From the NCBI GenBank assembly GCA_944376825.1, contig CALWDY010000012.1, positions 522 to 64,521 on the forward strand: 64,000 nt of DNA, given 5' to 3'. Positions 3,937-21,520 of the stretch are shown here, one piece after another; position 1 is the stretch's first letter, and the number at the start of each line of letters is the position of its first letter. Under the pieces are notes generated by a model. The model was not told where the DNA came from. It saw nothing but the letters and a program-made list of their open reading frames with translations, and made no database searches. The DNA comes from an uncultured Clostridia bacterium. GTDB lineage: Bacteria > Bacillota > Clostridia > Christensenellales > UBA1242. Made by a program: the position numbers and the translations under genes.

Positions 3937-4001
3937 TTGGTTAAAATTTAAATAACTAAAATGCATTTTAATAAAATATATATTTATAAATTGGATATTT
4001 T

Positions 4002-4752
4002 TTATAAATTTTTTCCTTTTTCTTCGAGATAAGCTGAATAATTACAATTATATAATGACATTTCCCTATCATCAATTTCTAATATTTTTTCTGGTATTTT
4101 ATCTAAAAAATATAAATCGTGAAACACTTTAATCTTTGCCACATAAAAAGTTTTAATATAATTTTTTAACCATTCTATTCTTTCTATGTCAAAATTATTT
4201 GTGGATTCATCTAGCAACATTAAATTTGGTCTGGTTATCAAAATTATTGCAGTTTTTTACCCACCACTTAAATTATTATAAAACATAAATAAAGTGTTTT
4301 TACTATATTTTAACCCATCCACAACTGCATTAATATTAACATTTATATAACAGCATTTGAAAAAATCTTTCAGTAATATTGCAAAATTTTTCTAATGTTT
4401 TATTATTCTTTTTAGGTAAACTTTCATTTAATAGGTTTTGCAAAGAATTTAATATTACTTCCTTTTATTAAGGTATTTAAACGCATCTTTTAATATATCA
4501 TAAATACATCTAATTCTCCTTTTACTTAAACTAACTTGATTAAGATATACTACTTTTGCATTCTTTTTATTTTTATGCTTCTTGAATCATATTTTTCTAA
4601 ACATATAATCATTATAAGAAAAGTTGATTTTTAAATATTCATTAGGTCTAACTATTTACAGAACCTCTTCTTCATTTTAAAAAAAATGAGTCATCTTTAT
4701 AAAGCTGTTTAGATCCAAAATCTTTTCAAACCTATCAACTTTAAAAAATCAT
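4002..4752 (-). pseudogene. Decayed partial copy of an ABC-F ATPase (first nucleotide-binding domain only)
   Basis: Conceptual translation across several frames matches the intact ABC-F at 15565..17205. Examples are DFGSKQLYKDDSFFLK vs DFGYGKLFENVSFSLN, IYDILKDAF vs VYDILKDSF, and NNLSGG*KT vs NKLSGGEKT. The Walker A is destroyed (DLMNI*KST). Multiple stops and frameshifts; truncated after NBD1. Confidence 0.85.
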
Positions 4753-4814
4753 TATCCAAATTTCATTTGTATAATAGTTTACATATGCTTTTTAATTTAG
4801 TAAACCCAATAAAT

Positions 4815-6200
4815 TTATTTGGCTAAGATTTTTGTAACCAATTTCCTCATATTATATATCCCATTTATTAGATCTTTTTCAGATACTGCAAAATTAATTC
4901 TTGCAACCAACTGTTCTTTTTGGGGCCACATAATAGATTGACCACACAATACTTTAATTAAAGCATCATTGTAAAAAATATCAAATAATTCATAATCGTT
5001 GGTTATTTTTTTATCACCAATGGTTTTCCCTTTTATCATACTAAAATCAAGGACAGCGAAAAAACCAGACTGAACATATTGTGGTTCTACCGCAAATTGA
5101 ATATCAAGAGTATTATAAAGTAAATCCTTGTATTTTGTAGGACCTAATATTTTATAGACTTTCCTTTTTGTTCTAGTATTATATGTTCTATTCAGTAGCG
5201 CTATTAATAACTCAAGTCTATTTTTGTATAATTTATTTAATTTTGTAAAATATTTTTCATAATATTTTTTATTTTTAACAGAAAAAGCCCCTGTAAGTGA
5301 AGATATTGTTAATAAAGAAACAGAATCTAAAGTATGAAAAATAATATCTCTCATTTTTTTTATTACATCATTATTTGCAATCAAAATACCACTTCTTAAT
5401 GCAGCCAAACCAAAACATTTAGATAAACCTAATAATGAAATTATATTATTGGACTCAAAATTTGCCATAGGAATAGGATTGTAATTAGAAAAACAAATAT
5501 CCCTATATATTAAATCATCTATTATAAAAAAATTATATTTTTTAGCTAATTGAGCTAAATTTTTCAACACATCAATTTCTTGCACCCCCAAAACTTTTCC
5601 TGTTGGATTATGTGGATTGCAATTATAAAAAAATTTAACTCTCCCTTGTTTGCCTTGCGACTGCATAGATGAATTATACTTTTTTATTAATTTCTCTATT
5701 TCTTCTATATTAAATATCCAATTTTCTTTTTGTTCTAAATTTATTGTTAAAACTGTAAAACCATGTCTTTCAGGTGTAAAATCAAAAAAACCATAATTAG
5801 GACATGGGATAATTATTGCATCTCCGCATTGACCTAATGCATCAAAAACAAGGTTATACCCGTGCGTCGTTGAATAAGTAAAAACAATATTATTGTCTGC
5901 CACATTGTTATTGTAACCGATAGACTTTAAATATTTTTTTATTATAGCTTTATCATTTAAAGAACCACAAGTCCCCATGTATTGATATAAATCTTTTCTT
6001 TTTAAACATTTTTTAATCTCTTTTACACTAAACTTATAAGGTTTAAACTTGATTGGATCACCGGTCATTAAATTATATTCTTTGCGATTTAACATATATT
6101 TTTTTTGACACATGAAATCATACATAGTTGAAACCAACTTTAATTTTTCATTTTTACAATTTTCTATACTTAAAACCGGAACATCGTTGTTAATTTCCAT
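4815..6200 (-). CDS. PLP-dependent class I/II aminotransferase-fold enzyme (aminotransferase or C-S lyase); last gene of the RiPP-like operon
   Basis: NCNPHNPTG motif and LSKCFGLAALRSG (PLP-lysine region). ATG 6200 is preceded by TAGGTG at 6-nt spacing. An in-frame GTG at 6209 abuts the stop of the upstream gene. Confidence 0.75.
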   Translation of the reverse strand: MEINNDVPVLSIENCKNEKLKLVSTMYDFMCQKKYMLNRKEYNLMTGDPIKFKPYKFSVKEIKKCLKRKDLYQYMGTCGSLNDKAIIKKYLKSIGYNNNVADNNIVFTYSTTHGYNLVFDALGQCGDAIIIPCPNYGFFDFTPERHGFTVLTINLEQKENWIFNIEEIEKLIKKYNSSMQSQGKQGRVKFFYNCNPHNPTGKVLGVQEIDVLKNLAQLAKKYNFFIIDDLIYRDICFSNYNPIPMANFESNNIISLLGLSKCFGLAALRSGILIANNDVIKKMRDIIFHTLDSVSLLTISSLTGAFSVKNKKYYEKYFTKLNKLYKNRLELLIALLNRTYNTRTKRKVYKILGPTKYKDLLYNTLDIQFAVEPQYVQSGFFAVLDFSMIKGKTIGDKKITNDYELFDIFYNDALIKVLCGQSIMWPQKEQLVARINFAVSEKDLINGIYNMRKLVTKILAK

Positions 6201-6209
6201 ACTAAACAC

Positions 6210-7463
6210 CTATAAATCATAATAATTTAATTTTTTTAATTCAAAGTTATTAAGGACATCGCTTTTTAAATAAATATTTTTTAATTTTAATAAAGGTAAA
6301 ATTTTATTTTGTTGGGATTGCATTCTACACAGCTTTAATAAGTATTTTCTATTTCCTGAGCTTTCATATAATTGCGATACATTTCTATATTCCTTACCAA
6401 AAACCAGTTTAAAATATTTAGAAGTGTAAAATATCCCATTTGAATTGCCACCCACATAATTAATTTCCAAATTTATGTCATTATCGTTAGGCTCTGCCAA
6501 CCTGCAACTATGCAATTTTACAACATATCCAAACTTTTCTAATTGTTTTTTTATTTGTAATGCTATAATTTTGTTTGGGTAAAACTCACAATATCCCATT
6601 TTAATTGAACTATTAAAAATTTTCTTCTGCATATTATTATGTTTGTCTGTTTTTTTTGAAGATTTCTGTAAGAGAAAATTGTCTTTTATTTCATAAATGT
6701 AATTTACTTTTTCCAATATTTTAATTTTATCTATACAACCAAAAATGTTTTTTCTCCACATGTCAAATTTATCATCAAAATATTTCTTATTAAATTTTAA
6801 AACAAAAAACAAATTACTGTCATTTATCGATACATTATAATTATTAATTTTGTATAACGGAAAAGTTGTGGGATTGGTCATATCTATTTTACCAGAAACA
6901 AAATCTTTTATTTCTTTTCTAGTGCTTTTTGAAACATTAAATATAATTATGTCATTATTGATATTTTTTAATTTTTTACGATAATATGTATTGCGTTTCA
7001 ATGTAATTTCTTTACGTGTACTTTTTTGTATATAATATGGACCACTTGTCAATCTATTCTTAAAGGGAGAAACATACATTAATGTTAATTTTTCCAAAAA
7101 AAACACATCTTTATTAAACAATTCAATTTGCAATTTATCGTTTATACAAGAAACATTCTTAATGTTTTCAAACAAAAATTTTGCATAACATCTATTATTT
7201 AATATATAATTTAAAGCTTCACAATAATCTTTAGCACTAACCTTTTGACCATCTTGAAAATATAAATCACTTCGTAAAACAAATTCAAAAAACAAATCTT
7301 TTTTATTAATAAATGTCTTACAAGCGTTTGGTATAATTCGGTTCCGTTTATCAAATTTGACCAAAGGATCCATTATCGCTGAATATATCAACACTCCGCT
7401 GTAATCATTTACTAAAAAAGGATTATTAGATAATGGTAATGAATCAACACATATTTTACTCAT
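6210..7463 (-). CDS. Family-5 solute-binding-protein (OppA/DppA/NikA-type) homolog lacking any signal peptide or lipobox
   Basis: SBP_bac_5-like pattern: YSAIMDPLVKFDKRNRIIPNACKTF, LRSDLYFQDGQKVSAKDY, TSGPYYIQ...ITLKRNTYY, VSGKIDMT. The N-terminus MSKICVDSLPLSNNPF has no hydrophobic h-region. Start overlaps the upstream stop (ATGA). Confidence 0.6.
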   Translation of the reverse strand: MSKICVDSLPLSNNPFLVNDYSGVLIYSAIMDPLVKFDKRNRIIPNACKTFINKKDLFFEFVLRSDLYFQDGQKVSAKDYCEALNYILNNRCYAKFLFENIKNVSCINDKLQIELFNKDVFFLEKLTLMYVSPFKNRLTSGPYYIQKSTRKEITLKRNTYYRKKLKNINNDIIIFNVSKSTRKEIKDFVSGKIDMTNPTTFPLYKINNYNVSINDSNLFFVLKFNKKYFDDKFDMWRKNIFGCIDKIKILEKVNYIYEIKDNFLLQKSSKKTDKHNNMQKKIFNSSIKMGYCEFYPNKIIALQIKKQLEKFGYVVKLHSCRLAEPNDNDINLEINYVGGNSNGIFYTSKYFKLVFGKEYRNVSQLYESSGNRKYLLKLCRMQSQQNKILPLLKLKNIYLKSDVLNNFELKKLNYYDL

Positions 7464-8413
7464 CTTTCGTTTTCCTTAAACTTAACAATCAATTCTCTAT
7501 TTAAAGACTTTACACTTTCAAATCTATCCAATAAAAAAAATATAATATCCCAAGCCATATATGTTGCTATTAAAGTATTGGTTACTCCAAAAGAACTTTT
7601 GCAAGGAAATATGTATTTAATTTTGCTTAAAGCTCTATCTAGTTTAGTTATGTAATTATTTTTATCATTGTTGTTATTAAACAGTGGACCATAATGTCCT
7701 TCAAAAACACCAACACCCCCGAAAATTACTGGTGTATTGTACTTTTTAGATGCTTTTAATATTATTTTTTGTATAAATAATGGTGGAGTATCTGCAGCAT
7801 TAACAATTATGTCTATATGATTTTTATCAAGTATTTCAATCAAATCTTCTTCTTTTGATATAAATTTGTTATAACACATAACGCTTGCCTCATTTGAAAC
7901 AGATTTTATGTATTTTTTTAATACTTTTGTCTTTAACTGTCCTATTTCCTTCATTTTGTATACAAATTGCCTATTTAAATTAGAAATACTTATCTTATCA
8001 AAATCTATAATTACATATTTTTTAATGCCAACAGCAAGAAGTTGATTTATTATCTCCGAACAAATCCCCCCAGCACCAACAAAAAGAACTGTTTTTTCTT
8101 GCAATAATGATATATTATTAATATTATCAAAATTATGCATAAACAATTCAGTTCGTTCTGTACTGGTTTGAAACGATTTTATTATATTTTCTGGCGCCTC
8201 TTCCAACACTTCATTATTTACCAAAAACTCAAATGTTTTTTGAGAAAAATCTTTATCATCAATGATAGAAAAAGATTTTGAAAGATTGACCAACAGATTA
8301 TAATCTTTTTCAGGTAAACAATGCCTAATTGTTACTTGATTGTTTTCAAATAAAATTGTATTATCGCCCATAAATAACATCTTTTTTGCATCATTAAAAA
8401 TATATTTACTCAT
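7460..8413 (-). CDS. E1/ThiF/MoeB-like adenylyltransferase with a ~100-aa N-terminal extension (peptide-clamp/RRE-like)
   Basis: VLFVGAGGICSEIINQLLAVGIKKYVIIDFDKISISNLNRQF is the Rossmann GxGGxG plus NLNRQ signature, and NAADTP is present. The N-terminal part is predicted beta-rich (TILFENNQVTIRH). 8-nt overlap with the upstream gene. Confidence 0.75.
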   Translation of the reverse strand: MSKYIFNDAKKMLFMGDNTILFENNQVTIRHCLPEKDYNLLVNLSKSFSIIDDKDFSQKTFEFLVNNEVLEEAPENIIKSFQTSTERTELFMHNFDNINNISLLQEKTVLFVGAGGICSEIINQLLAVGIKKYVIIDFDKISISNLNRQFVYKMKEIGQLKTKVLKKYIKSVSNEASVMCYNKFISKEEDLIEILDKNHIDIIVNAADTPPLFIQKIILKASKKYNTPVIFGGVGVFEGHYGPLFNNNNDKNNYITKLDRALSKIKYIFPCKSSFGVTNTLIATYMAWDIIFFLLDRFESVKSLNRELIVKFKENER

Positions 8414-9674
8414 TGCTAACCACCCTAAGCATATTATCTTTTACAAGTAGAATAAAAATTTCTTTAATAGATTTTAGTTCACTAAAATCATATTTTAAAA
8501 GATTTTGTTCAAATGTTTTGTCAAATGATATTTTTTTTATAAGATTATAGGCTTCTTGGTCGATGATAACATTTTTACATCCTATTAAAACATATTTATC
8601 CTTGTTTTTAACTATTTTTGCAATGCCTGTTTTAAAATGAAATTTTTTTATTTTGTCCCAACTTTCTTCAATTAATTCATTTACCAAAACATCATTGCAA
8701 CCAGATGCAGTTTTTCCTATTTCGCACTTACATCCACCAATACATCTTACAAATTTTGCACAATTTTTACATATAAGTGAGCAATTTCTTATATGAGATT
8801 TTAAAATTTCGTTATTATTTTCCCATATCTCTTGCAACGAAGAAGAATATAAATTGCCCAATATATCAGTAGAATTTCCACAAATTGTCACATCACCATT
8901 TGTTTCAATCGCACAAGATTCTATACCTGCGTTACAGGGAACAACATCATCTAAATCGATATTATTGCTATAACAGCCAACGGAACAATGTCCAAAATTA
9001 ATATAACTTTTTTCACTTCGCAATTTTTTTAAAAGCGTCAAAAGTTTGACTGCCAATTGTTTGGAATCTTTTGTTTGACCTTTTCCAATTTGAAAAACTC
9101 TTGTAACATTAAGTTTTATCCCCAAGCTTTTACAAATATTCGCTACAGATTGTAAATCCTTATAATTAGTGTTAAAATCAGTAGCAGTATAACAAATATC
9201 AATATAGATATTGGGATATGCGTTTCTCAAATATTTTATATTACTTATAACTCTTTCATAACAAGATGATTTGGTTATTGCGTTGTGAGTTTTTTCTCTA
9301 CCATGAAGAGAAATAGATATACCATTTACATAATTAAGACATTCTTTAAGATGAGGACTAGATAGCAAACAACCATTTGTTACAACACATTGGTATAAAC
9401 TTAGAGTTTTGCCGTATTTTAACAGGTCTAAAAAATTAGAATACATAAAAGGTTCTCCACCAGTATAAAAAACTCTAATTATTCCAAAATTTTTTAATTG
9501 TAATAAAAGGTCTTTTGCAAATTTAAAGTCCATTTCAATATGCTTGCTTTCACCTTGAGAACAAAATGAACAATTTAACATACAATTGTTTGTTATTTTA
9601 ACAAATACTGAAAAAGGATGTTCATTTAACAAATACTCATAATGGTTAGATAATATATTATTGTTATAAAGCAT
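8406..9674 (-). CDS. Radical SAM enzyme with a SPASM domain and a C-terminal PqqD-like (RRE-like) extension; putative peptide maturase
   Basis: CMLNCSFC (Cx3Cx2C) at residues ~31-38 and GGEPF. SPASM cysteines are CAIETNGDVTIC and CKNCAKFVRCIGGC (Cx2Cx5Cx3C). About 100 aa follow SPASM (KIVKNKDKYVLIGCKNVIIDQEAYNLIKKI). Confidence 0.85.
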   Translation of the reverse strand: MLYNNNILSNHYEYLLNEHPFSVFVKITNNCMLNCSFCSQGESKHIEMDFKFAKDLLLQLKNFGIIRVFYTGGEPFMYSNFLDLLKYGKTLSLYQCVVTNGCLLSSPHLKECLNYVNGISISLHGREKTHNAITKSSCYERVISNIKYLRNAYPNIYIDICYTATDFNTNYKDLQSVANICKSLGIKLNVTRVFQIGKGQTKDSKQLAVKLLTLLKKLRSEKSYINFGHCSVGCYSNNIDLDDVVPCNAGIESCAIETNGDVTICGNSTDILGNLYSSSLQEIWENNNEILKSHIRNCSLICKNCAKFVRCIGGCKCEIGKTASGCNDVLVNELIEESWDKIKKFHFKTGIAKIVKNKDKYVLIGCKNVIIDQEAYNLIKKISFDKTFEQNLLKYDFSELKSIKEIFILLVKDNMLRVVSNE

Positions 9675-9677
9675 AAG

Positions 9678-11585
9678 CTATCCTTTTAAAATTATATTAA
9701 GCTTTTCTATTTCTTCCCCCAAAAACACATCATAGAAAATATCTACTACATTCTCATTTTTATAATTAATATTTCTTATTTTTAACAACTCGGCAATTTC
9801 ACCATCTCTTTTTTCAAAATAATCAGGGTCCATTGCCCCCATATCCCATATTATTTGATAAGTACTATTTTTAATTTCACTTAAACACTCTAAAAACTCA
9901 CATGTCTTTTTAAGCTTTTTGCTTTTAACTTGAATTTGTTTGTTTAACAAATCATTAAAACTGATATTTTCCTTTTCCAATAATTGAATTGACTGGTTGT
10001 AACTTTCTAATAGAGTTTGGCCAAATGGAATAACTCCAACTAATAATTCATTAATTGCTGCACAATATTCTTTAATAAAAATTTTTAATAATTCATCATC
10101 GCAACTATCTAATGCCTTTACTAGTTTTTTAACAATTAAAAGAAGTTGATCTTTTATTGTTTTTAAAAAATCAGCATCTAAGTTTTTCCCCGCTTGATTG
10201 ATTTGACTATAAAATTGTAAAAATAGAGGTAATTTTTTAAACCTTTCAATTTCCATTATCCACAAATACTTGTTATTGTCTTCACTATATTTTGGACACA
10301 TTCCAAAATGCAGTCTTACAAACAACTCCAATTCTGCTCTATTATCTCCATCCAATTTTTCATTTGAATGAATTATAATCCCCTCATATGTAAGCTCTAT
10401 AAATACTTTTTGATCCCTTAATGAATATGCAAAATAATTTTCAAAACAATCCAAATCACTATAATTAAAATGAAATTTTTTGTTTAAATAAATATCATTA
10501 TTGTTAATTTTAATAATTCCGTGGATTGTATCAAGTTCAATTTTATCTCCCGTTTTAACTTTTTTTGTAATATCTTTGCAAGCAACAACACAAGGTATAT
10601 TTAATTCCCTAGCCAAAATTGCAGCATGACATAAAACAGAACCCGACTCCGTGATAATAGCCGATGCTTTTTTCATTGCTGGCAAAAAATATGTTTCAGT
10701 TGCCTGAGATATTAAAATGCTACCTTCTGGGAATTTATTAATTAATTTAACCATATCCTCATAAGGTAGATCAAAGTCTATGAAATAAGCGTCCCCATTG
10801 ACATTTCCATTTGTTATGATTATTCCTTGCCCTTCACTGTTAGAATATTCTTTATTAATATAAATTGGCTTTGTTATTGGCCTCATTTGAGTAATAAATG
10901 TACGATTTTCATTATCCACGCACCACTCAATATCAACGCCCTTAGGATAAGTATTGTTAATTTTGTTTATAATTGTAATAAGTTGTTGAATATTTTCCAA
11001 ATTTATAAAATTTCCGCTATACTCACAATAATTTTCTTCAAATTTACCATTTATAAATGGGACAACCATTTTAAAAGAATTATAAATTCCTGAAACTAAT
11101 TTATCTCCCTCCCCCTCAACAATTTCAATCATAGCAGCCCGTTGCCCATTGACATTTAGAGCATTTGTAAAACACACACCAGAATATACTGGTTCAATCA
11201 TTTCCTGAATAATAATACTCATTTCAACTTTATTATTAGTATATGATTTAACGACTTCTGAAGTGGAACTTTTAAGTACAAACAAAATTGCTTCCTTAAT
11301 TTTAAAATAATCATTGTCAACATTTAGCATTGTTTTAAATATACCCGCAAAAGAATTTAATTCGCCGTCTTCAACATCTGCAGAAGATCTAACTGCAAAT
11401 TTTTGTGATTTTGAAAAATGAGAAATAAAATCTTTTATTGCAATCTCATCCACCTTTTCATTTTTAAAACTTTTTACAATTATTCCTTTAGGAATTCTAA
11501 TATTCATTTTTGAAAGCAAGCTTAACCCATAAGCCTTACCACCGCACAAATTCGAACAAGTATCATATGTATATATCACAAGCAC
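9678..11585 (-). CDS. PPDK/PEP-synthase-like phosphotransferase: ATP-grasp PPDK_N, then a phosphohistidine swivel domain, then an unknown ~270-aa helical C-terminal domain
   Basis: CGGKAYGLSLL, FAVRSSADVEDGELNSFAGIF, IIQEMIEPVYSGVCFT and TQMRPIT (PPDK_N-like). ITESGSVLCHAAILARELNIPCVV is the PEP-utilizer mobile-domain His motif. The start is uncertain: GTG at 11585 or GTG at 11579, the latter better spaced from AGAGGTG. Confidence 0.75.
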   Translation of the reverse strand: MLVIYTYDTCSNLCGGKAYGLSLLSKMNIRIPKGIIVKSFKNEKVDEIAIKDFISHFSKSQKFAVRSSADVEDGELNSFAGIFKTMLNVDNDYFKIKEAILFVLKSSTSEVVKSYTNNKVEMSIIIQEMIEPVYSGVCFTNALNVNGQRAAMIEIVEGEGDKLVSGIYNSFKMVVPFINGKFEENYCEYSGNFINLENIQQLITIINKINNTYPKGVDIEWCVDNENRTFITQMRPITKPIYINKEYSNSEGQGIIITNGNVNGDAYFIDFDLPYEDMVKLINKFPEGSILISQATETYFLPAMKKASAIITESGSVLCHAAILARELNIPCVVACKDITKKVKTGDKIELDTIHGIIKINNNDIYLNKKFHFNYSDLDCFENYFAYSLRDQKVFIELTYEGIIIHSNEKLDGDNRAELELFVRLHFGMCPKYSEDNNKYLWIMEIERFKKLPLFLQFYSQINQAGKNLDADFLKTIKDQLLLIVKKLVKALDSCDDELLKIFIKEYCAAINELLVGVIPFGQTLLESYNQSIQLLEKENISFNDLLNKQIQVKSKKLKKTCEFLECLSEIKNSTYQIIWDMGAMDPDYFEKRDGEIAELLKIRNINYKNENVVDIFYDVFLGEEIEKLNIILKG

Positions 11586-11617
11586 ACCTCTTTATATATT
11601 TAAATTTTAATGTAAAT

Positions 11618-11646
11618 AATACCAAGCACAAAAAGTGCTTGGTATT
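11618..11646 (-). terminator. Strong intercistronic hairpin between the precursor ORF and the first enzyme gene (partial terminator, attenuator or mRNA-stabilising stem)
   Basis: Perfect 12-bp stem AATACCAAGCAC / GTGCTTGGTATT with a 5-nt loop. It starts 10 nt after the peptide stop codon. The downstream tract AUUUACAUU is only moderately U-rich. Confidence 0.55.
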
Positions 11647-11655
11647 ATACTTTTA

Positions 11656-11718
11656 TTAGCTTCTGTGAACACAGCATTCCGCTAATAATTCTTCGTCGGT
11701 CATTTCTACTTCTTTCAT
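11656..11718 (-). CDS. Unannotated 20-aa ORF, candidate RiPP precursor peptide MKEVEMTDEELLAECCVHRS
   Basis: ATG 11718 lies 7 nt downstream of a perfect AGGAGG (11726..11731); TAA stop at 11656..11658. It has its own promoter, is followed by a hairpin, and sits directly upstream of and co-directional with the rSAM/E1-like operon. Acidic N-terminal part and Cys-Cys-Val-His-Arg-Ser C-terminus. Confidence 0.7.
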   Translation of the reverse strand: MKEVEMTDEELLAECCVHRS

Positions 11719-11737
11719 AAACATGCCTCCTATGTAG

Positions 11738-11766
11738 AGTATGCAACAAATTCATTTAAATGTCAA
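11738..11766 (-). promoter_or_regulatory. Sigma-70-type promoter driving the precursor ORF and operon
   Basis: On the minus strand: TTGACA (11761..11766), a 17-nt spacer, then CATACT (11738..11743). The predicted TSS is a few nt upstream of the Shine-Dalgarno, giving a very short leader. Confidence 0.5.
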
Positions 11767-12092
11767 TAAAAAACAATTAAAAGCCATAATGGTAACTAGC
11801 ACATCATCAAACTCATTCATTCAAATAAAATGAGCGTAAAAATTACTCTTATTTTTTTATTCTAAAAACAGTTATGCGCCTTATAAATAGTTATAGCATT
11901 TTTAATTAAGCAACATTTTCAAGTTGTTTGTTATCGGTATCTTAAAAGTTTTTTCAAAACAGACATAGATAAATTAACGCCAATTGACTCTTTTGTTTTA
12001 ATATAAAATGCTATAACAATGTACCTTTAATCAAATTTTCTTTATCAACCATGCACTAAAAAATAAGAAACTCAATTCATCAATATAAAATT

Positions 12093-12311
12093 TTAATAGT
12101 TCTTTATATTTTTTGATACGGCAACAACACGTAAGTTTTTGCAGTCTTGCTTTTTTGCAAAATTCTCAATATGTTTAACAAGCAATTTCCCATAACCCCT
12201 ATCTCTGTAAATGCGACTCACATAAATCTCATCTATGTTAAAAGATTTTTCACCTTTTTCTATATATGCTTTATCTTTTGCTTCAATTTCAAAACATCCA
12301 AATGCGTATAA
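12093..12311 (-). pseudogene. GNAT acetyltransferase C-terminal remnant (no start codon)
   Basis: 72-codon stop-to-stop frame reading ...IDEIYVSRIYRDRGYGKLLVKHIENFAKKQDCKNLRVVAV..., which is GNAT motif A (R-x-x-G-x-G). The N-terminal half and the start are missing. Confidence 0.55.
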
Positions 12312-12392: not shown

Positions 12393-13685
12393 TTATTTTT
12401 TTATAATTTTATTAAAATCTTTAACAATTTTCAACATACGCTCGTCTAAATACTTTAATCCTTGTTTTTCAATTTCTTTTGGAACACCATAGTAAGCGCC
12501 TGCTATTGCTCCCGTTATTGCCCCCATTGTGTCTGTATCTCCACCCCAAGAAATAACTTTTCTTATTGCATCTTCATATGAATTTGATACCAAAAACGCA
12601 AAAATGCTTTGCGGAACAGACTGTTGACACGAGCCCTCAAATTTGTAATTTTCAAACAAATCGTTTTCATCATAGTTCATTGGATAATAATTTTCGTCAA
12701 TATACTTTCCAATTTCTTCTTTACTACATCCGTTTAATGCCATCCACTCAGCCACCGCTGTTGCTTCTGCTCCTTTAATTCCTTCTGGATGATTGTGTGT
12801 TATCTCAGTTACTTTTCTTGATAACTCTTTTACTTCTTCTAAATTTTTTGCAACATAAGAGATTGCACTTATTCTCATTGCACTCCCATTACCAAAAGAA
12901 TTATAAGGTTTAGTGCTACCCGAAATTAACCACTTATAAAACATTCCACCATAACCTGCTGTGTTATAATAATTTTTACCTATTTCATGCATATTCACAA
13001 TTGTTATTTTGTCAAGATTTGTGTAATCTCCCTTGCAGTCAATTAAACTTTGTGCTATTGCACAAGTCATAACAGTGTCATCAGTAAAACGACAATAATT
13101 ATTGAATAATGGAAAATCTTTTAATTTTAAATTCATAAATTCATAAGGAGAGCCAACTATATCTCCAATTATGGTACCCATAAGCACCAATCTATTATCT
13201 TTAAGAACAAATTCTTCTGGTTTGGCTTCGTCAATACTCAATAAATTTGCTTCTGTAACATTTTTTGTTGCTATGTAGTTGTTTATATGTTCCAAATCTA
13301 TTTTTGATGAAAACCCACAATTCTCGTGAAATAATCTTGAACCTAAATTATAAATTCTAATATGGCAACTTATTGAGTTAAAACCTTTTAAATATTTAAA
13401 AATATATTCATAAATTTTTGTTCCTACGCCTTCTCTTTGGTAATTTGTATTTACAGCAATTTGTGCAATATACAAATCACCAATTCGATATAAATCTTTT
13501 TTTAAATAAGCATAACCAATTATATTTTTATTTAATCGTGCAACAACAAGATAATCGTATGGCAAAATGCCCTCATTTTCAAGTGTTCCCCCATTTTTTG
13601 CTAAATTTTCATTATTTATTTTTAATATTTGATTTTTGTCATTTTCATTTAAACTTTTTAATGTTTCAATTATATATTTTTCCAT
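12393..13685 (-). CDS. Fusion protein: N-terminal GNAT acetyltransferase domain plus C-terminal ADP-ribosylglycohydrolase (ARH/DraG-family) domain
   Basis: GNAT part: LYIAQIAVNTNYQREGVGTKIYEYI. ARH part: GDIVGSPYEF, FTDDTVMT, GNGSAMRISA, GGDTDTMGAITGAIAGAYYG. ATG 13685 (MEKYII) preferred over the upstream start at 13748. Confidence 0.7.
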   Translation of the reverse strand: MEKYIIETLKSLNENDKNQILKINNENLAKNGGTLENEGILPYDYLVVARLNKNIIGYAYLKKDLYRIGDLYIAQIAVNTNYQREGVGTKIYEYIFKYLKGFNSISCHIRIYNLGSRLFHENCGFSSKIDLEHINNYIATKNVTEANLLSIDEAKPEEFVLKDNRLVLMGTIIGDIVGSPYEFMNLKLKDFPLFNNYCRFTDDTVMTCAIAQSLIDCKGDYTNLDKITIVNMHEIGKNYYNTAGYGGMFYKWLISGSTKPYNSFGNGSAMRISAISYVAKNLEEVKELSRKVTEITHNHPEGIKGAEATAVAEWMALNGCSKEEIGKYIDENYYPMNYDENDLFENYKFEGSCQQSVPQSIFAFLVSNSYEDAIRKVISWGGDTDTMGAITGAIAGAYYGVPKEIEKQGLKYLDERMLKIVKDFNKIIKK

Positions 13686-14073
13686 ATTTTTCCTTTTATT
13701 TTTTTGTTTGCAAACATACAATGGTAAATTGAAATATATTAGATACAAATGTTAATTTTTTTGTTTATAAATATTTTTATTATTGTTATCTTTTACTATT
13801 AAAAATTTTATTTATGTATAATTCTGTTGCAAATTTATAATAAAATTTTTACTGTAACTAGATCTACATTCAACGATATTATCTACCAATATGATAGTGT
13901 ACCATACTTATACATTTTGAGGATGAACACACTGAGATGTCTTCCATTTTCAAACAGCAAACAGTTGCATTTTTTATAAATTCATTTAATAAATTTTCTT
14001 TTAAATTACAAAAACTTGATTTCCCTAAAACATATTTAATAATGTATTTCATAAACAAAGCCTCTAATATCAT

Positions 14074-15564: not shown

Positions 15565-17205
15565 ATGATTATATTAGATGTAAATAAATTAAGTAAAGAT
15601 TTTGGATATGGAAAACTTTTTGAAAATGTTTCTTTCTCACTTAACGAAGGAGAATCTATTTCTATTGTAGGGCCAAATGGCTGTGGAAAGTCCACTTTGT
15701 TAAAAATGATTGCGGGAATTGAAAAAATAGACAACGGAACGGTAAGCATAAAAAAAGATGCAAAAGTCGCATATCTTGACCAGGTCGGTTCAAGTTATGA
15801 AGATGATAGATGTGTTTATGATATTTTAAAAGATTCTTTTGTTGAATTAAACGAAATGGAAAAGCGATTAAACATGTTACAAGAACAATTAAGTCAACAA
15901 AGTTTAAGCAACGATTATGACACAATTCTTAAGAAATATTGCAACTTGATAGAAAAATTTTCTATGCTTGGCGGTTATGATATTGACACAAATATTAACA
16001 TGGTTGCCGAAGGGTTAAAAATTAATAAAACAATATTAAATCAAAGTTATAACAAATTAAGTGGCGGTGAAAAAACTTTGGTGCAACTTGCAAAATCACT
16101 TTTGATAAGACCTGATTTGCTTTTGCTTGATGAACCAACAAACCACTTAGATATAGAAAGAATAGAATGGTTGGAAAAGTATATAAAGTCGTTTAAAGGT
16201 GCAACAGTTATTATTTCTCACGATAGATATTTTTTAGATAAAATGTCCAACAAAATATTGTCATTAGAGTTTGGCACTCCAAAGGTTTATTGCACCAATT
16301 ACACTGGGTATTTAAAAGAAAAAGAATTGGAATTTGAAAAACAATTAACAGCTTATAAAAATCAACAGCAACAAATAGAGAGATTTGAAAAACAAATTAA
16401 ATATTTTGCTCAAATTGGAATGGCAAAGAACAGTTCTGCCATGTGTGATAGAGCCCACACCCTGCAAACTCAATTAGATAGATTGAAAAAAAATGCAATA
16501 AAAAAACCAAAGCAAACAGCAAACATAAATGTTGCATTTGATGAAGTTAAAAAATCAAGTCAAGTGATAATTGATGCAAAAAATTTAAAAACACAAACTC
16601 CAAGTAAAAATATAATTTTAGACAACATAAATATAAAAATTTGTTCAAAAGAAAGAGTCGCCATTATTGGAAATAACGGAAGTGGCAAATCTACTTTTAT
16701 TAAAATAGTTCTTAAAGCAAACGAACTGCCATTTGAAGGAGAAATTGTTGTTGGTCCAAGTGTAAAGATTGGATACTTACCTCAAATAATAAAATTTACA
16801 AACGAAAACTTTACTCTTTTAGAATATTTTAAAAATTCATTAGGTGTAGACGAACAAAAAGCTCGACAAATTTTAGCAAGTTTCCATTTTTACAAAGAAG
16901 ATGTCAATAAAAAGGTTAAAAACCTATCAGGTGGTGAAAAAATTAAGGTAAAATTAGCAGAACTTTTACAACAAAAAATAAACACCTTGATATTTGATGA
17001 ACCAACAAACCACATCGACATTCCAACAAAAGAAGTTTTGGAAAATGCACTTGATGAATTTAAAGGTACTTTGATATTTGTTAGTCATGATAGATATTTT
17101 ATTAACAAGTTTGCAGATAAAACAATAGAGTTTAAAAACGGCAAAACAACAACATATGTTGGAAACTATGATTTTTATAAACAAGAAAAAAACAAAAAAC
17201 TATAA
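15565..17205 (+). CDS. ABC-F family ATPase (two ABC domains, no transmembrane domain; translation-factor or antibiotic-resistance type)
   Basis: Two Walker A motifs (GPNGCGKST, GNNGSGKST), two signatures (LSGGEKT, LSGGEKI), two Walker B motifs (LLLLDEPTNHLD, TLIFDEPTNHID) and a Q/K-rich interdomain linker. AAGGAG lies 6 nt before the ATG. Confidence 0.9.
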   Translation: MIILDVNKLSKDFGYGKLFENVSFSLNEGESISIVGPNGCGKSTLLKMIAGIEKIDNGTVSIKKDAKVAYLDQVGSSYEDDRCVYDILKDSFVELNEMEKRLNMLQEQLSQQSLSNDYDTILKKYCNLIEKFSMLGGYDIDTNINMVAEGLKINKTILNQSYNKLSGGEKTLVQLAKSLLIRPDLLLLDEPTNHLDIERIEWLEKYIKSFKGATVIISHDRYFLDKMSNKILSLEFGTPKVYCTNYTGYLKEKELEFEKQLTAYKNQQQQIERFEKQIKYFAQIGMAKNSSAMCDRAHTLQTQLDRLKKNAIKKPKQTANINVAFDEVKKSSQVIIDAKNLKTQTPSKNIILDNINIKICSKERVAIIGNNGSGKSTFIKIVLKANELPFEGEIVVGPSVKIGYLPQIIKFTNENFTLLEYFKNSLGVDEQKARQILASFHFYKEDVNKKVKNLSGGEKIKVKLAELLQQKINTLIFDEPTNHIDIPTKEVLENALDEFKGTLIFVSHDRYFINKFADKTIEFKNGKTTTYVGNYDFYKQEKNKKL

Positions 17206-17953: not shown

Positions 17954-18634
17954 TTATAAGTTTTCTTTTTCTATAAATGGTATTAAAATTCTAGGAGAAG
18001 CGATTCCTGTGCATGAGATTGTGTGCAAATCACCTTTTATGTTTAATCTTTTAACTTGTTCATCTTTAAAATATGTGCAACTGTGAGTTTCCATCCAGCC
18101 GTATTTTTTTGTTTTTACCTCTATATCAAATTTCTTAAAATGATATCCAGCATCTTCTTTTGTTTTATCAACCACTCTGTATTCAATTGAATAATTTTCC
18201 AAAAAAAATGTTGCGTTTTTTAAAAACTCATAAAAATATTTGTCGGCATTTTCTGGCTTACAAAAACAATATTGTTCAAATTTTTTAAACTCTTTTAATC
18301 TTATAAATCCCTCTAAATTTAATTCCTTTCTAAAACATTCGTTAAATGAAAAATAACATTGTTCTTCTTCTACGCTCTTATTCATAAAGTATTCTAAAAA
18401 GCCTTGTTCTGCACTGCCAAAAAGCGCATGCGTCTCATCAATTCCCAAACTTTGGTCTGTTCTTACTGCTTCTTGTTTTTCAACAACCTCCCATTTCCCA
18501 GCACTTGGCAACGATAAGTATTTGTAACCCTTTTTTAAAAGCATATCTTCAAAATCTCTAAATAGTTTTCTTTCTAGTTCGCTTAACTTATTGTCAAGAT
18601 AATACAATCCGTTTTCAACATAATAATTATTCAT
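17954..18634 (-). CDS. Seryl-tRNA-synthetase-like class II catalytic core only (no tRNA-binding coiled-coil arm); possibly an amino acid:carrier/ligase-type paralog
   Basis: SerRS-like motif 2 is ECFRKELNLEGFIRLKEFKKFEQYCFCKPE. FDIEVKTKKYGWMETHSCTYFKDEQVKRLNI corresponds to DLEvW...E.SSCSN..DFQARR. Motif 3 is HTISCTGIASPRILIPFIE. Only 226 aa. 8-nt overlap with the upstream gene. Confidence 0.6.
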   Translation of the reverse strand: MNNYYVENGLYYLDNKLSELERKLFRDFEDMLLKKGYKYLSLPSAGKWEVVEKQEAVRTDQSLGIDETHALFGSAEQGFLEYFMNKSVEEEQCYFSFNECFRKELNLEGFIRLKEFKKFEQYCFCKPENADKYFYEFLKNATFFLENYSIEYRVVDKTKEDAGYHFKKFDIEVKTKKYGWMETHSCTYFKDEQVKRLNIKGDLHTISCTGIASPRILIPFIEKENL

Positions 18635-19617
18635 ATTTTTTACTTTCCTTAACTTTATTTGAAAATTTTATTAAATCATGTATAGTTAAACCATAATTTT
18701 CTGCAATTTTTTCAACTGCTCCAATGATATCTGAAAGTTCAATAAGATACATTAAATGGTTTTGTTGTTGCAATGCATCTTTTGCCTCTTCAACTTCTTC
18801 TTCTACTTTTGAAAATTCACCATAAACACCTTTTTTTATGTTTTTTTCGTGAAAACTAAATTTTTGATTTACATTTATTTCATCATAAGTGTTTTTTGTT
18901 GAAAAATGAATTGTCAAAGGTTTGTTGTTTTTTGTTTCAAAAATAAATCTTTTGTGTAAAAAAGTTTTAAGTTTATTTGTTGTAATTATATTGTTTATAA
19001 CATTGTCTATCTCTGAAATAGCAAGCGCATTATTCTTAATCCAAAGACTTTGTTTTGTTCCATTGTTTGAATTATCCAAAAATTTTAATGCAATTGTTTC
19101 AACATTTTGAATGTTTGAATAATGGTCTATGTAGCGATTAATAAATTTAACATTGTTGTTTAAAAGAACAATATTTACCCTTACTCTCTTTGCATTTAAA
19201 AAACTTGAAAGTTCCAAATAGTTTTGATTTTAACCAAAAAACTTTTTATCCTCTAATGCGTTAGATGATACAACAGTAATTTCCTTTAACCAACCACTAA
19301 ATAGGTTTAATTTTTCTTGTTCACAAAACAAATTACCAGAGGTTTGAATTCGATAATCTTTAAATATTTTTGAATTTTCCACTATTGTTTTTATTTCTTC
19401 AAGTTTTTTTAAATCATACAACGAAGTTTCGCCATTGCCCGACAAAATAAAATGCTCAAAACTTATTTTTTTTGTTTTTGTAATAACTAATTTTGTCTTT
19501 TAAGCTTTTTATTTCTTCTTCAAATGAACTTGTATTTTTGTTATTCATTTTAGCAATACAATAAGGACAATTCTTATTACACTTGTAATCGTTTAGTATA
19601 AAAACAAAATCTTTCAT
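18627..19617 (-). pseudogene. Disrupted radical-SAM enzyme fused to a C-terminal HisE/MazG-like all-alpha NTP pyrophosphohydrolase domain
   Basis: The N-terminus MKDFVFILNDYKCNKNCPYCIAK (Cx3Cx2C) follows an AGGAG Shine-Dalgarno. A +1 frameshift sits in the A8 run (19466..19473), after which the frame continues FEHFILSGNGETSLY. An in-frame TAA lies at 19230..19232. The C-terminus EFSKVEEEVEEAKDAL...LIELSDIIGAVEKIAENYGL carries the EExxE...ExxD pattern. Confidence 0.6.
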
Positions 19618-20711: not shown

Positions 20712-20712
20712 T

Positions 20713-21510: not shown

Positions 21511-21520
21511 TTTTGCCCCC

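What the first reader, a model, noticed from the sequence alone, without database searches (positions are those of the whole stretch)
11656..11718. Hidden 20-aa ORF MKEVEMTDEELLAECCVHRS with textbook expression signals
Seen in sequence: the ATG lies 7 nt after a perfect AGGAGG. A TTGACA-17-CATACT promoter lies just upstream, and a TAA stop is followed 10 nt later by a perfect 12-bp hairpin. The ORF is co-directional with and 70 nt upstream of the first enzyme gene. The peptide splits into an acidic, helix-prone N-terminal part (KEVEMTDEELLAE) and a C-terminal CCVHRS.

Inference: this is a leader/core layout. Adjacent cysteines are natural targets for rSAM-SPASM thioether chemistry. Ser20, Thr7 or His18 could be phospho-acceptors for the PPDK-like enzyme. 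The C-terminal carboxylate or the Glu/Asp side chains could be adenylated by the E1-like enzyme. Cys-Cys-x-His is also a plausible metal-binding motif.

The C-terminal His-Xaa-Ser recalls, from memory, the TIGRFAMs His-Xaa-Ser rSAM system. However, there is only one repeat and the gene set differs, so this may be coincidence.
Basis: partly seen in the sequence, partly recalled or inferred. Interest (0 to 1): 0.88.

Follow-up and report, generated by a model that had tools for sequence, protein, structure and literature searches.

The report
Hidden precursor peptide of unknown pathway
The 20-codon ORF is a real, conserved gene: it most likely encodes the substrate peptide of an undescribed peptide-modifying pathway in uncultured gut bacteria, which includes a PEP-synthase-type phosphotransferase, an enzyme type I found no report of in such pathways.

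Summary
On the minus strand, ATG 11718 to TAA 11656 encodes MKEVEMTDEELLAECCVHRS. It has AGGAGG 7 nt upstream, TTGACA-17-CATACT, and a perfect hairpin (14 bp, not 12). It lies 70 nt before the first enzyme gene.

It is not a chance ORF. A homologous small ORF sits directly upstream of the orthologous PEP-synthase-like gene in 12 of 13 related loci whose upstream DNA is held, where enzyme identity is only 37-51%. The conserved core is LL-x-x-C-[C/E]-x-[H/Q]-R-[S/T/C]-stop. Changes are biased towards synonymous ones, and the C-terminal Ser uses both codon families.

The cassette encodes:
- a dikinase-type phosphotransferase with a very rare C-terminal domain;
- a SPASM radical SAM enzyme;
- a ThiF enzyme whose model matches MccB and PaaA over its full length, including the peptide clamp;
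- a signal-less SBP_bac_5 homolog;
- an aminotransferase.

A sister family swaps ThiF for YcaO and has a GGNYC core, but shares the MxKFIKxxF leader. The window's peptide lacks that leader.

No curated family or searchable paper describes the system. Best reading: a precursor peptide of a new RiPP-like family. The chemistry is inferred only. The His-Xaa-Ser idea and Cys-Cys as the key target are not supported.

The parts
11738..11766 (-). Sigma-70-like promoter: TTGACA (11766-11761), 17-nt spacer, CATACT (11743-11738)
   Evidence: Conserved in L043. Not statistically significant by itself.
11726..11731 (-). Shine-Dalgarno AGGAGG, 7 nt before the ATG
   Evidence: GGAGG is present before 10 of 11 orthologous peptide ORFs and before the L136 ORF.
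11656..11718 (-). Precursor peptide gene, 20 codons plus TAA: MKEVEMTDEELLAECCVHRS. Short acidic leader (residues 1-10), invariant LL at positions 11-12 (-10/-9), and C-terminal segment xxC[C/E]x[H/Q]R[S/T/C] (residues 13-20).
   Evidence: Orthologs in L043, L136, L001, L004, L013, L093, L006, L101, L095, L100 and L096. pN/pS about 0.25 and a Ser codon-family switch.
11616..11648 (-). Perfect 14-bp stem with 5-nt loop between the peptide gene and the first enzyme gene. Likely a partial terminator or mRNA-stabilising element.
   Evidence: -20.5 kcal/mol, z = -6.8. A hairpin follows the stop codon in every orthologous locus although its sequence differs, mostly with a U-tract.
9678..11585 (-). 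PEP-synthase/PPDK-like phosphotransferase, 635 aa: ATP-grasp domain, swivelling phospho-His domain (His320 invariant), and a family-specific helical C-terminal domain (about 375-635)
   Evidence: Pfam PPDK_N and PEP-utilizers. Below all NCBIfam cut-offs. AF2 pLDDT 85.6. Foldseek matches PPDK, RPH and PEPS. The C-terminal domain has only 34 homologous representatives among 1.84 billion.
8406..9674 (-). Radical SAM/SPASM enzyme, 422 aa, with CxxxCxxC at residues 31-38, eight conserved SPASM cysteines and a roughly 100-aa C-terminal extension
   Evidence: Best solved relatives are SkfB (4e-27) and CteB (5e-19), with anSME at 1e-14. The extension has no significant RRE or PqqD hit.
7460..8413 (-). 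ThiF/E1-like adenylating enzyme, 317 aa, with an N-terminal peptide-clamp domain of about 100 aa (MccB/PaaA type)
   Evidence: Pfam ThiF. PDB sequence match to MccB over residues 18-307. AF2 pLDDT 92.6. Foldseek top hits are MccB (E = 3e-20, TM 0.68, full length) then PaaA. The ATP-binding motifs GxGGxG, NxNRQ and Asp208 are invariant.
6210..7463 (-). SBP_bac_5 (OppA/NikA-type) homolog, 417 aa, with no signal peptide or lipobox, so presumably cytoplasmic
   Evidence: N-termini of four orthologs inspected.
4815..6209 (-). PLP-dependent class I/II aminotransferase-fold enzyme, 464 aa
   Evidence: Present in all loci of the CC-core subtype whose 3' side is held, and a shorter relative occurs in the YcaO sister family.
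3996..4740 (-). Pseudogene remnant of the ABC-F ATPase that is intact and adjacent to the cassette in other loci
   Evidence: Stops and frameshifts relative to the L043 ortholog. Adjacency in L001, L004, L013, L093/L098, L043, L101 and L136. NF000355 passes its cut-off.

Best explanation
The ORF encodes the ribosomally made substrate (precursor) peptide of an uncharacterised RiPP-like pathway carried by the five genes downstream.

Shown:
- The gene is real, conserved at the protein level, and always placed directly 5' of the dikinase-like gene.
- The cassette is under purifying selection.
- The ThiF enzyme is of the MccB/PaaA type, with a peptide clamp and intact ATP-binding motifs.
- The dikinase keeps its catalytic His.

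Inferred mechanism:
1. The promoter and strong Shine-Dalgarno site drive high expression of the peptide. The hairpin after the stop codon acts as a partial terminator or stabiliser, so peptide mRNA exceeds enzyme mRNA.
2. The acidic helix and the invariant Leu-Leu, fixed at -10/-9 from the C-terminus, dock on the ThiF clamp and place the C-terminal carboxylate in the adenylation site. This is the only carboxylate common to all family members.
3. The acyl-adenylate is captured by an intramolecular nucleophile. The invariant Cys at -6 is my first choice, which would give a macrothiolactone.
4. The dikinase-type enzyme passes phosphate from ATP through His320 to a hydroxyl group. Most plausibly this is the side chain of the conserved C-terminal Ser/Thr/Cys residue.
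5. The SPASM radical SAM enzyme abstracts a hydrogen in the core, giving a thioether or an oxidation to a carbonyl.
6. The aminotransferase then acts on a carbonyl group of the modified peptide, as in daptide biosynthesis.
7. The cytoplasmic SBP homolog binds the peptide or the product.

The order of these steps and the final structure are unknown.
For: Conservation:
- Homologous ORFs lie immediately upstream of the orthologous dikinase gene in L043, L136, L001/L011/L097, L004/L005/L137-139, L013/L091, L093/L098, L006, L094/L101, L095, L100 and L096.
- The enzymes in these loci are only 37-51% identical to the window's.

Selection on the peptide:
- Within the CC subtype, pN is 0.10-0.25 against pS of 0.3-0.9.
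- Third codon positions are the least conserved.
- Ser(-1) is AGC/AGT in one subtype and TCA in the other.
- In close variants, substitutions cluster in the leader and the core is invariant apart from T/A at -4 and S/T at -1.

Selection on the enzymes: dN/dS is 0.11-0.15 for four cassette genes between the window and L043.

ThiF: the MccB alignment covers residues 18-307. The Foldseek ranking is MccB then PaaA, both full length.

Dikinase: the catalytic His320 and ATP-grasp residues are invariant. The C-terminal domain is exclusive to this family and is not shared with the YcaO-type sister enzymes, which align over only 51-56% of the query. That fits a role in binding the core.

Sister family: it has the same N-terminal leader motif (MxKFIKxxF) but a different core, and it places the peptide gene in mid-operon or at the 3' end.

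Expression signals: a GGAGG and a post-stop hairpin are found in essentially every locus.

Precedents:
- ThiF-like RiPP enzymes with an RRE that activate a peptide carboxylate, including GrcB acting alongside radical SAM enzymes (PMC12596934, PMC12250964).
- An aminotransferase acting on a modified peptide C-terminus (PMC12670281).
Against: - There is no experimental product, and no transcript or translation data.
- The cassette holds no exporter and no obvious leader protease. An M3 peptidase is present only in the CE subtype.
- The window's peptide lacks the N-terminal MxKFIKxxF motif that is conserved in both families, so recognition may differ here.
- Decay events occur in relatives. The radical SAM gene is deleted and S20C has arisen in L043. 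The peptide gene is replaced in L092.
- L100 holds only the peptide and the dikinase.
- The radical SAM C-terminal extension could not be shown to be an RRE.
- All chemical steps are inferences from family membership.
Confidence: 0.8

Rival explanations
1. The peptide is a disposable scaffold, and the real product is a small molecule or cofactor cut from its C-terminus. This is how PQQ and mycofactocin are made. The product would stay inside the cell.
For: - There is no exporter in the cassette, and all five enzymes lack signal peptides.
- The C-terminus is strictly conserved.
- The radical SAM enzyme gives sub-threshold hits to MftC and PqqE.
- An aminotransferase could deaminate a released fragment.
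- The hosts include a small-genome organism: one carrying contig is 1.19 Mb.
- An M3 peptidase is present in the CE subtype.
Against: - The MftC and PqqE matches are far below their cut-offs (71.7 vs 265 bits and 53 vs 381 bits).
- The cassette is sporadic and is lost or decayed in close relatives. That is unusual for an essential cofactor.
- The linked ABC-F gene hints at a bioactive product.
Confidence: 0.2
2. The ORF is a cis-regulatory leader peptide. Ribosome stalling at Cys, His, Arg or Ser codons would control the hairpin that follows, and so control read-through into the enzyme operon.
For: The ORF is followed 8 nt later by a stable hairpin, and it lies 5' of the operon. This geometry allows coupling between translation and hairpin formation.
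Against: - Conservation is at the amino-acid level, with synonymous changes and a Ser codon-family switch.
- There is no run of regulatory codons, and the second Cys is Glu in one subtype.
- In the sister family the homologous peptide gene lies inside or at the 3' end of the operon.
- No known RNA element was found in the region.
- A ThiF enzyme with a peptide clamp needs a peptide substrate.
Confidence: 0.05
3. In this particular lineage the peptide is a decaying remnant. The N-terminal leader has been lost and the cassette is on its way to inactivation.
For: - The window peptide lacks MxKFIKxxF.
- The adjacent ABC-F gene is a pseudogene.
- L043 has lost the radical SAM gene and carries S20C.
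- The window and L043 differ by only 2 synonymous and 2 non-synonymous changes in the ORF.
Against: - The short form (19-20 aa) is shared with L136, whose dikinase is only 51% identical. It is therefore old and stable.
- All five enzyme genes are intact in the window.
- dN/dS is 0.11-0.15.
- The promoter, Shine-Dalgarno site and hairpin are all preserved.
Confidence: 0.1
4. The ORF is a chance open frame in AT-rich intergenic DNA.
For: - ORFs of 20 codons are abundant in this DNA. One search lists 17 ORFs of at least 20 aa within 950 bp.
- Promoter-like sites occur at the shuffled-sequence rate.
Against: Positional and sequence conservation across 12 loci, selection at the protein level, and gene calls for orthologs in hundreds of contigs.
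Confidence: 0.01

Closest known systems
GRC-type RiPPs of Streptococcus (GrcA precursor; GrcB ThiF-like thiolactone synthase; GrcC and GrcD radical SAM enzymes)
   Same: - A short precursor with a conserved C-terminal motif containing His, Arg and a terminal nucleophilic residue.
- A ThiF-like enzyme with an N-terminal RRE or clamp, working together with radical SAM enzymes.
- ATP-dependent activation of a peptide carboxylate followed by intramolecular capture (PMC12596934, PMC12250964).
- In the CE[TA]HR[S/C] subtype, Glu(-5) and the residue at -1 have the same i, i+4 spacing as Glu35 and Cys39 of GrcA.
   Different: - The window's core has Cys, not Glu, at -5.
- No shp/rgg quorum-sensing genes, stand-alone RRE or transporter are present.
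- It adds a dikinase-type phosphotransferase, a cytoplasmic SBP homolog and an aminotransferase.
- No GrcB sequence was available for direct comparison.
Microcin C system (MccA heptapeptide and MccB)
   Same: - The ThiF enzyme is the closest structural and sequence relative of MccB over its full length, including the peptide clamp.
- The precursor is very short.
- The C-terminal residue is the conserved focus.
   Different: - MccB chemistry needs a C-terminal Asn (succinimide, then an N-P bond). Here the terminal residue is Ser, Thr or Cys.
- There are no MccC, MccD, MccE or MccF homologs.
- The Zn-binding CxxC pairs of MccB appear to be absent, judged by eye from the alignment.
Daptides (invariant C-terminal Thr; oxidative decarboxylation, transamination, methylation; some with YcaO)
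   Same: - An invariant beta-hydroxy amino acid at the C-terminus.
- A PLP aminotransferase in a RiPP cassette.
- A YcaO in the sister family (PMC12670281).
   Different: - The aminotransferase is class I/II (PF00155), not class III (PF00202).
- There is no NAD-dependent DapC or DapB, and no methyltransferase.
- The cassette has radical SAM, ThiF and dikinase enzymes instead.
Sactipeptide and ranthipeptide maturases (SkfB, CteB, PapB)
   Same: - The radical SAM/SPASM enzyme's best solved relatives are SkfB and CteB.
- The core has an invariant Cys.
   Different: - All NCBIfam maturase models score far below their cut-offs.
- There is no N-terminal RRE.
- Only a single Cys is conserved, and no acceptor residue can be identified.
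Dikinase-family small-molecule phosphotransferases (PEP synthase, rifampin phosphotransferase, PigC/RedH)
   Same: The ATP-grasp domain and swivelling His domain, with the catalytic His conserved. The mechanism presumably runs ATP to His-phosphate to an O-phosphorylated substrate.
   Different: The substrate domain is a helical C-terminal domain restricted to this family. The genetic partner is a peptide. I found no report of a dikinase-family enzyme in a RiPP pathway.

Membership tests
RiPP precursor peptide (generic definition) | A small ORF genetically linked to peptide-modifying enzymes | tested here: met
   Directly 5' of the dikinase, radical SAM and ThiF genes in 12 of 13 loci.
RiPP precursor peptide (generic definition) | A conserved core and a more variable leader | tested here: met
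   The core LLxxC[C/E]x[H/Q]R[S/T/C] is nearly invariant. Variation is concentrated in the N-terminal part, and the leader length runs from 9 to about 23 residues.
RiPP precursor peptide (generic definition) | An enzyme with a leader-recognition (RRE or peptide-clamp) domain | tested here: met
   The ThiF model aligns over its full length with MccB and PaaA, including their N-terminal clamp. The same test for the radical SAM C-terminal extension was inconclusive.
RiPP precursor peptide (generic definition) | A post-translationally modified product is detected | not testable with these tools
   Needs expression and mass spectrometry.
Microcin C-like peptide-nucleotide systems | An MccB-type ThiF enzyme with a peptide clamp | tested here: met
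Microcin C-like peptide-nucleotide systems | The precursor ends in Asn | tested here: not met
   The terminal residue is Ser, Thr or Cys in all 25+ variants.
Microcin C-like peptide-nucleotide systems | MccC, MccD, MccE or MccF-type export, tailoring or immunity genes | tested here: not met
   None appear in the Pfam or NCBIfam annotation of the cassette.
GRC-type ThiF/rSAM RiPPs | ThiF-like enzyme with an RRE, plus radical SAM enzyme(s), next to a short precursor | tested here: met
GRC-type ThiF/rSAM RiPPs | A C-terminal ...E-x-x-x-C (GRC) motif giving a Glu-Cys thiolactone | tested here: not met
   The window core is CCVHRS, with no Glu at -5. Only the CE subtype (L096, CEAQRC) has this spacing.
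GRC-type ThiF/rSAM RiPPs | Quorum-sensing regulator (shp/rgg) and a transporter in the cluster | tested here: not met
   Not present among the flanking genes.
His-Xaa-Ser radical SAM system (HxsA-D) | A precursor with tandem His-Xaa-Ser repeats | tested here: not met
   There is a single H-R-S at the C-terminus. One relative has Q-R-C.
His-Xaa-Ser radical SAM system (HxsA-D) | Paired HxsB and HxsC radical SAM proteins and HxsD | tested here: not met
   There is one radical SAM gene. No Hxs model is among the 25 best NCBIfam hits, and none of those reaches its cut-off.
Sactipeptide/ranthipeptide | A maturase that matches a curated sacti- or ranthipeptide maturase model | tested here: not met
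   StsB scores 46 bits against a cut-off of 625, SkfB model 42 against 300, and PapB 42 against 340. SkfB is nonetheless the best solved relative.
Sactipeptide/ranthipeptide | A Cys-to-carbon thioether in the product | not testable with these tools
   Needs MS/MS or NMR.
Mycofactocin / PQQ peptide-derived cofactors | An MftC or PqqE ortholog and the cognate C-terminal motif (GVY, or E...Y) | tested here: not met
   MftC scores 71.7 bits against 265 and PqqE 53 against 381. There is no Tyr in the peptide.
Daptides | Invariant C-terminal Thr, an NAD-dependent decarboxylating dehydrogenase with an RRE partner, and a class III aminotransferase | tested here: not met
   The C-terminal residue is Ser. 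The aminotransferase is PF00155. There is no DapB or DapC-like gene (PMC12670281).
Transcription-attenuation leader peptide | A run of codons for the sensed amino acid, with conservation at the codon or RNA level rather than the protein level | tested here: not met
   Selection is at the protein level with a Ser codon-family switch. The homolog lies in mid-operon or at the 3' end in the sister family.
Transcription-attenuation leader peptide | An alternative antiterminator structure | not tested
   Only the minimum-free-energy fold of the 60 nt after the stop codon was computed.
Anti-phage defence systems (PADLOC) | Cassette proteins match a defence-system model set | tested here: not met
   Only superfamily-level partial hits were found (viperin core, the E1 domain of Cap2). 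The other proteins gave none.

The most novel reading that the evidence does not exclude
This is the precursor of a new RiPP class whose class-defining enzyme is a PEP-synthase-type (swivelling phospho-histidine) phosphotransferase acting on a peptide. It works with an MccB-like adenylating enzyme, or with a YcaO in the sister branch, and with a radical SAM plus aminotransferase pair that would turn a Cys or Ser into a carbonyl and then an amine. The repeatedly linked ABC-F ribosome-protection-type gene would be self-immunity, which implies a translation-targeting product made by abundant uncultured gut bacteria.
Probability: 0.25. Interest if true: 0.9.

Novelty: new variant of a known kind. 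Interest (0 to 1): 0.72.

Why it matters
If this is right, a 19-33-aa peptide family defines an unstudied peptide-modification pathway. Gene callers often miss these peptides or label them hypothetical. The pathway is common in gut metagenomes: individual peptide variants were seen on 150-260 contigs, and a peptide of the YcaO sister family on at least 1000.

It would put a dikinase-family phosphotransferase and a cytoplasmic OppA/NikA-like protein into RiPP enzymology. It offers a near-leaderless natural substrate of 19-20 aa, which is convenient for in vitro reconstitution and engineering. The natural ThiF/YcaO swap and the C/E swap at position -5 give ready-made comparisons for working out the chemistry. 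The recurring ABC-F neighbour raises the testable possibility of a ribosome-directed product.

Tried and rejected
- Curated families: NCBIfam and Pfam scans of the peptides gave no hits. For the enzymes, every specific model scored below its cut-off.
- Literature: I searched for the motifs (CCVHRS, GGNYC and others) and for combinations of RiPP, radical SAM, ThiF, dikinase, YcaO and SBP_bac_5. No paper describes the system. PMC13381572 looked promising but concerns unrelated HPr-kinase-type phosphorylated peptides.
- RRE test for the radical SAM C-terminal extension: a Pfam scan at E up to 10, a member-by-member Pfam scan of the alignment, and a profile search against the PDB gave nothing significant.
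- anSME-like idea (the C-x-x-x-R spacing resembles the sulfatase CxPxR motif): anSME is a weaker relative (1e-14) than SkfB or CteB. I kept this only as a speculation.
I redid them with homologs from the protein searches.
- Flanking genes of the window (SerRS-like fragment, GNAT-ARH fusion, ABC-2 exporter) were tested for linkage to the cassette elsewhere. None was found.
- Defence-system and riboswitch explanations were checked and rejected.
- An exact look-up of the window's radical SAM protein found no record.
Full report
**1. The observation**

Everything lies on the minus strand.
- TTGACA at 11766-11761, a 17-nt spacer, then CATACT at 11743-11738.
- AGGAGG at 11731-11726, then 7 nt, then ATG at 11718.
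- The ORF ends with TAA at 11658-11656 and encodes MKEVEMTDEELLAECCVHRS.
- 70 nt separate the stop codon from the GTG (11585) of a 635-aa gene.

The hairpin is a perfect 14-bp stem with a 5-nt loop (11648-11616). It starts 8 nt after the stop and folds at -20.5 kcal/mol, z = -6.8. Its U-tract on the transcribed strand is weak.

An in-frame ATG at 11724 would give 22 aa. That codon is ATA in the close relative L043, and the L136 ortholog starts at the position equivalent to 11718.

Promoter-like hexamers are as common here as in shuffled sequence: 86 found against 78 expected. The signals alone prove nothing. Comparative evidence decides.

**2. The neighbourhood**

Five co-directional genes follow the ORF.
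- 9678-11585: PPDK_N plus PEP-utilizers domains with an unmatched C-terminal part.
- 8406-9674: a radical SAM/SPASM enzyme.
- 7460-8413: a ThiF enzyme with an N-terminal extension of about 100 aa.
- 6210-7463: an SBP_bac_5 homolog.
- 4815-6209: a class I/II aminotransferase.

No NCBIfam model reaches its cut-off for any of them. The SBP homologs start directly with the mature domain and have no signal peptide or lipobox.

**3. Conservation of the ORF**

Homologs of the radical SAM enzyme are rare: about 35 clusters among 5.8 billion. Their contexts came from several sources. These show the same cassette and a small ORF directly upstream of the dikinase-like gene.

| Locus | Peptide |
|---|---|
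| window | MKEVEMTDEELLAECCVHRS |
| L043 | MEEVEMTDEELLAECCVHRC |
| L136 | MKKEITDQELLEECCVHRS |
| L001/L011/L097 | MIKFFRRVFSKRSELTDKQLLTNCCIHRS |
| L004/L005/L137-139 | MLKFIKSIFNKENELEDRELLAKCCVHRS |
| L013/L091 | MVKFLKRVFRKKSDLTDKQLLASCCVHRS |
| L093/L098 | (V)LKFFKKLFCVGGDLEDKELLSKCCVHRS |
| L006 | MLKFIKSLFSKKSKRLDKTDLELLAICETHRS |
| L094/L101 | MLKFIKSLFSKKLDKNDLELLAICETHRS |
| L095 | MVKLIKSLFSKKLDENDLELLAICETHRS |
| L100 | MIKFVKSLFSKKLDKNDLELLAICEAHRS |
| L096 | MIKFIKWIINSRRTVSLDAIEKELLQLCEAQRC |

Sources for the table.

Conserved positions:
- Invariant: Leu-Leu at -10/-9, Cys at -6, Arg at -2.
- Nearly invariant: His at -3.
- Position -1 is Ser, rarely Thr (P0202, P0203) or Cys (L043, L096).
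- Position -5 is Cys in one subtype and Glu in the other.

Evidence for selection on the peptide:
- Within the CC subtype, pN is 0.10-0.25 against pS of 0.3-0.9.
- Third codon positions vary most.
- Ser(-1) is AGC/AGT in one subtype and TCA in the other. This requires selection for the amino acid itself.

A regex scan of six frames of 91 loci gave only two off-target hits. Orthologous peptides have been called as genes on hundreds of contigs, but always unnamed or 'hypothetical'. The window's own ORF is in no collection. The ORF is therefore a real gene.

**4. A wider family**

More distant radical SAM relatives (30-35% identity) sit in a sister cassette. It has a second SPASM enzyme, a shorter dikinase-like enzyme, a smaller aminotransferase, and YcaO in place of ThiF and SBP. 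Its peptides look like MIKFIKNLLKRNKV...LAELGGNYC[QS]D(xC).

They share the N-terminal MxKFIKxxF motif with the long Type A peptides, so the precursors are homologous. In the sister family the peptide gene lies between enzyme genes or at the 3' end of the operon. That argues against a pure 5' attenuator role.

The window, L043 and L136 peptides lack the N-terminal motif. L136's dikinase is only 51% identical to the window's, so the short form is an old, stable sub-lineage.

**5. Is the cassette alive?**

L043 is homologous to the window only across 3996-11922, at 92-94% nucleotide identity. Across that stretch dN/dS is 0.11-0.15 for the dikinase, ThiF, SBP and aminotransferase genes. All five window genes are intact.

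Decay events do exist.
- L043 has a 1115-bp deletion that leaves 43 codons of the radical SAM gene, and it carries S20C.
- In L092 the peptide gene and hairpin are replaced by unrelated DNA.
- L100 has only the peptide and the dikinase at that locus.

**6. The enzymes**

*ThiF.* MccB is the only solved protein that aligns across residues 18-307 by sequence. The AF2 model (pLDDT 92.6) matches MccB first (E = 3e-20, TM 0.68, about 335 aligned columns) and then PaaA. These are the RiPP-type ThiF enzymes that carry an N-terminal peptide clamp or RRE. The nucleotide-binding residues are invariant.

*Dikinase-like enzyme.* The catalytic His320 and ATP-grasp residues are invariant. The model (pLDDT 85.6) matches PPDK, rifampin phosphotransferase and PEP synthase. 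The helical C-terminal domain (about 375-635) has only 34 homologous representatives among 1.84 billion, always at the same position in proteins of 600-680 aa. It is not shared with the sister-family enzymes, which align over only 51-56% of the query. This fits a domain that binds the core.

*Radical SAM enzyme.* The best solved relatives are the sactisynthases SkfB (4e-27) and CteB (5e-19). SuiB, PqqE and anSME score near 1e-14 to 1e-15. The 100-aa C-terminal extension is conserved, but I could not show it to be an RRE.

**7. Expression architecture**

GGAGG precedes 10 of the 11 peptide ORFs tabulated, and also the L136 ORF. A stable hairpin follows the stop codon in every locus although its sequence differs, mostly with a canonical U-tract. 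This is the usual way for RiPP operons to make more precursor mRNA than enzyme mRNA. That last point is an inference.

**8. Mechanism**

*Shown:* a conserved, selected small gene is tightly linked to a dikinase-type enzyme, an MccB/PaaA-type ThiF with a peptide clamp, and a SPASM radical SAM enzyme.

*Inferred:*
- The acidic helix and the LL motif bind the clamp at a fixed distance from the C-terminus.
- ThiF adenylates the C-terminal carboxylate, the only carboxylate common to all members.
- An intramolecular nucleophile captures the adenylate. The invariant Cys(-6) is my first choice.
- The dikinase O-phosphorylates the side chain of the Ser/Thr/Cys residue at -1, or another oxygen.
- The radical SAM enzyme makes a thioether or oxidises a residue to a carbonyl.
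- The aminotransferase converts that carbonyl to an amine. Daptide biosynthesis is the precedent (PMC12670281).

An appealing idea, still untested, is that the ThiF/YcaO swap reflects two ways of activating a carbonyl for attack by such an amine. The C/E alternation at -5 together with S/C at -1 recalls the Glu35-Cys39 thiolactone made by GrcB (PMC12596934).

**9. Comparison with known systems**

The closest in logic are GRC-type RiPPs and microcin C. The closest for single steps are daptides, sactipeptides and small-molecule dikinases. Defining features of each were tested and at least one fails every time (see the membership table).

Neither curated libraries (Pfam 2025; NCBIfam release 20) nor the searchable literature describe the cassette or the peptides. 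The literature tool covers open-access papers and bioRxiv preprints only, so prior description elsewhere cannot be excluded.

**10. Verdict**

This is a genuine hidden precursor-peptide gene of a new RiPP-like family. The chemistry and the biological role are unknown. Interest is high for natural-product enzymology and moderate overall, because new RiPP families are found regularly.

Noticed in passing
window 3996-4740 (-), window 15565-17205 (+); L001 11849-13501, L043 9643-11292, L101 15409-17082, L136 6105-7760: An ABC-F ATPase passes NF000355 ('ribosomal protection-like ABC-F'). It lies next to the cassette in most loci, downstream and co-directional, or upstream and divergent in L136. In the window the adjacent copy is a pseudogene with stops and frameshifts, while an intact paralog lies 3.8 kb upstream of the peptide. 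It could be immunity or could be mere synteny.
   Followed up: partly
L043 5836-5964 and 3789-3851: In a relative with about 94% protein identity, 1115 bp of the radical SAM gene are deleted, leaving 43 codons, and the peptide ends in Cys instead of Ser. The other four enzymes remain under purifying selection.
   Followed up: yes
L092 4030-4390: The peptide gene and its hairpin are replaced by unrelated sequence. The breakpoint lies at the 3' arm of the hairpin, and the dikinase gene and its ribosome-binding site are kept. This is either a natural loss or a chimeric contig.
   Followed up: partly
L007-L010 and L014-L041 (e.g. L008 9463-9576, L009 13616-13738): A sister cassette holds two SPASM radical SAM enzymes, a dikinase-like enzyme, YcaO and an aminotransferase. 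Its peptides end in GGNYC[QS]D(xC) and share the MxKFIKxxF leader. One variant (P0208; Clostridium sp. CAG:245, CDA59116.1) occurs on at least 1000 contigs.
   Followed up: partly
L008 6882-6998; L009 6883-7020; L010 1774-1911: A second small ORF lies just upstream of the first radical SAM gene in the sister family. It carries a conserved ...(M/I)TQCR(I/M)I... motif and may be a second precursor.
   Followed up: no
L100 8812-10890: This locus has only the peptide and the dikinase-like gene, followed by an unknown 359-aa ORF and RNase HII. The peptide-dikinase pair is therefore the tightest association.
   Followed up: partly
window 17954-18634 (-) and 18627-19217 (-): A 226-aa protein matches only the catalytic core of seryl-tRNA synthetase (TIGR00414, 76.8 bits against a cut-off of 301; profile positions 165-399). 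It is preceded by an overlapping 196-aa ORF with no family match. It is not linked to the cassette in other loci.
   Followed up: partly
window 12393-13748 (-), 12093-12221 (-); L043 11297-11549: There is a GNAT/ADP-ribosylglycohydrolase fusion gene upstream, plus a GNAT fragment. The fragment's homolog lies downstream of the ABC-F gene in L043. The cassette flanks are therefore rearranged between two close relatives, whose homology covers only window 3996-11922.
   Followed up: partly
L006 205-1962; L012 9222-10817; L101 7149-8735, 11882-12943 and 12936-14141: The CE[TA]HRS subtype carries an M3-family peptidase in the cassette. In place of the aminotransferase, L101 has a weak PLP-decarboxylase-like ORF plus an unknown 401-aa ORF, and L006 has two unknown ORFs.
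   Followed up: partly
P0205, P0202, P0203 (protein collection): Natural peptide variants exist: a stop-loss form ending ...HRSKSKL and forms ending ...HRT.
   Followed up: no
window 19932-22510 (-): An ABC-2 type exporter (one ATPase and two permeases) lies 8 kb upstream of the peptide. It is not conserved near the cassette, apart from related genes in L020 and L021.
   Followed up: partly
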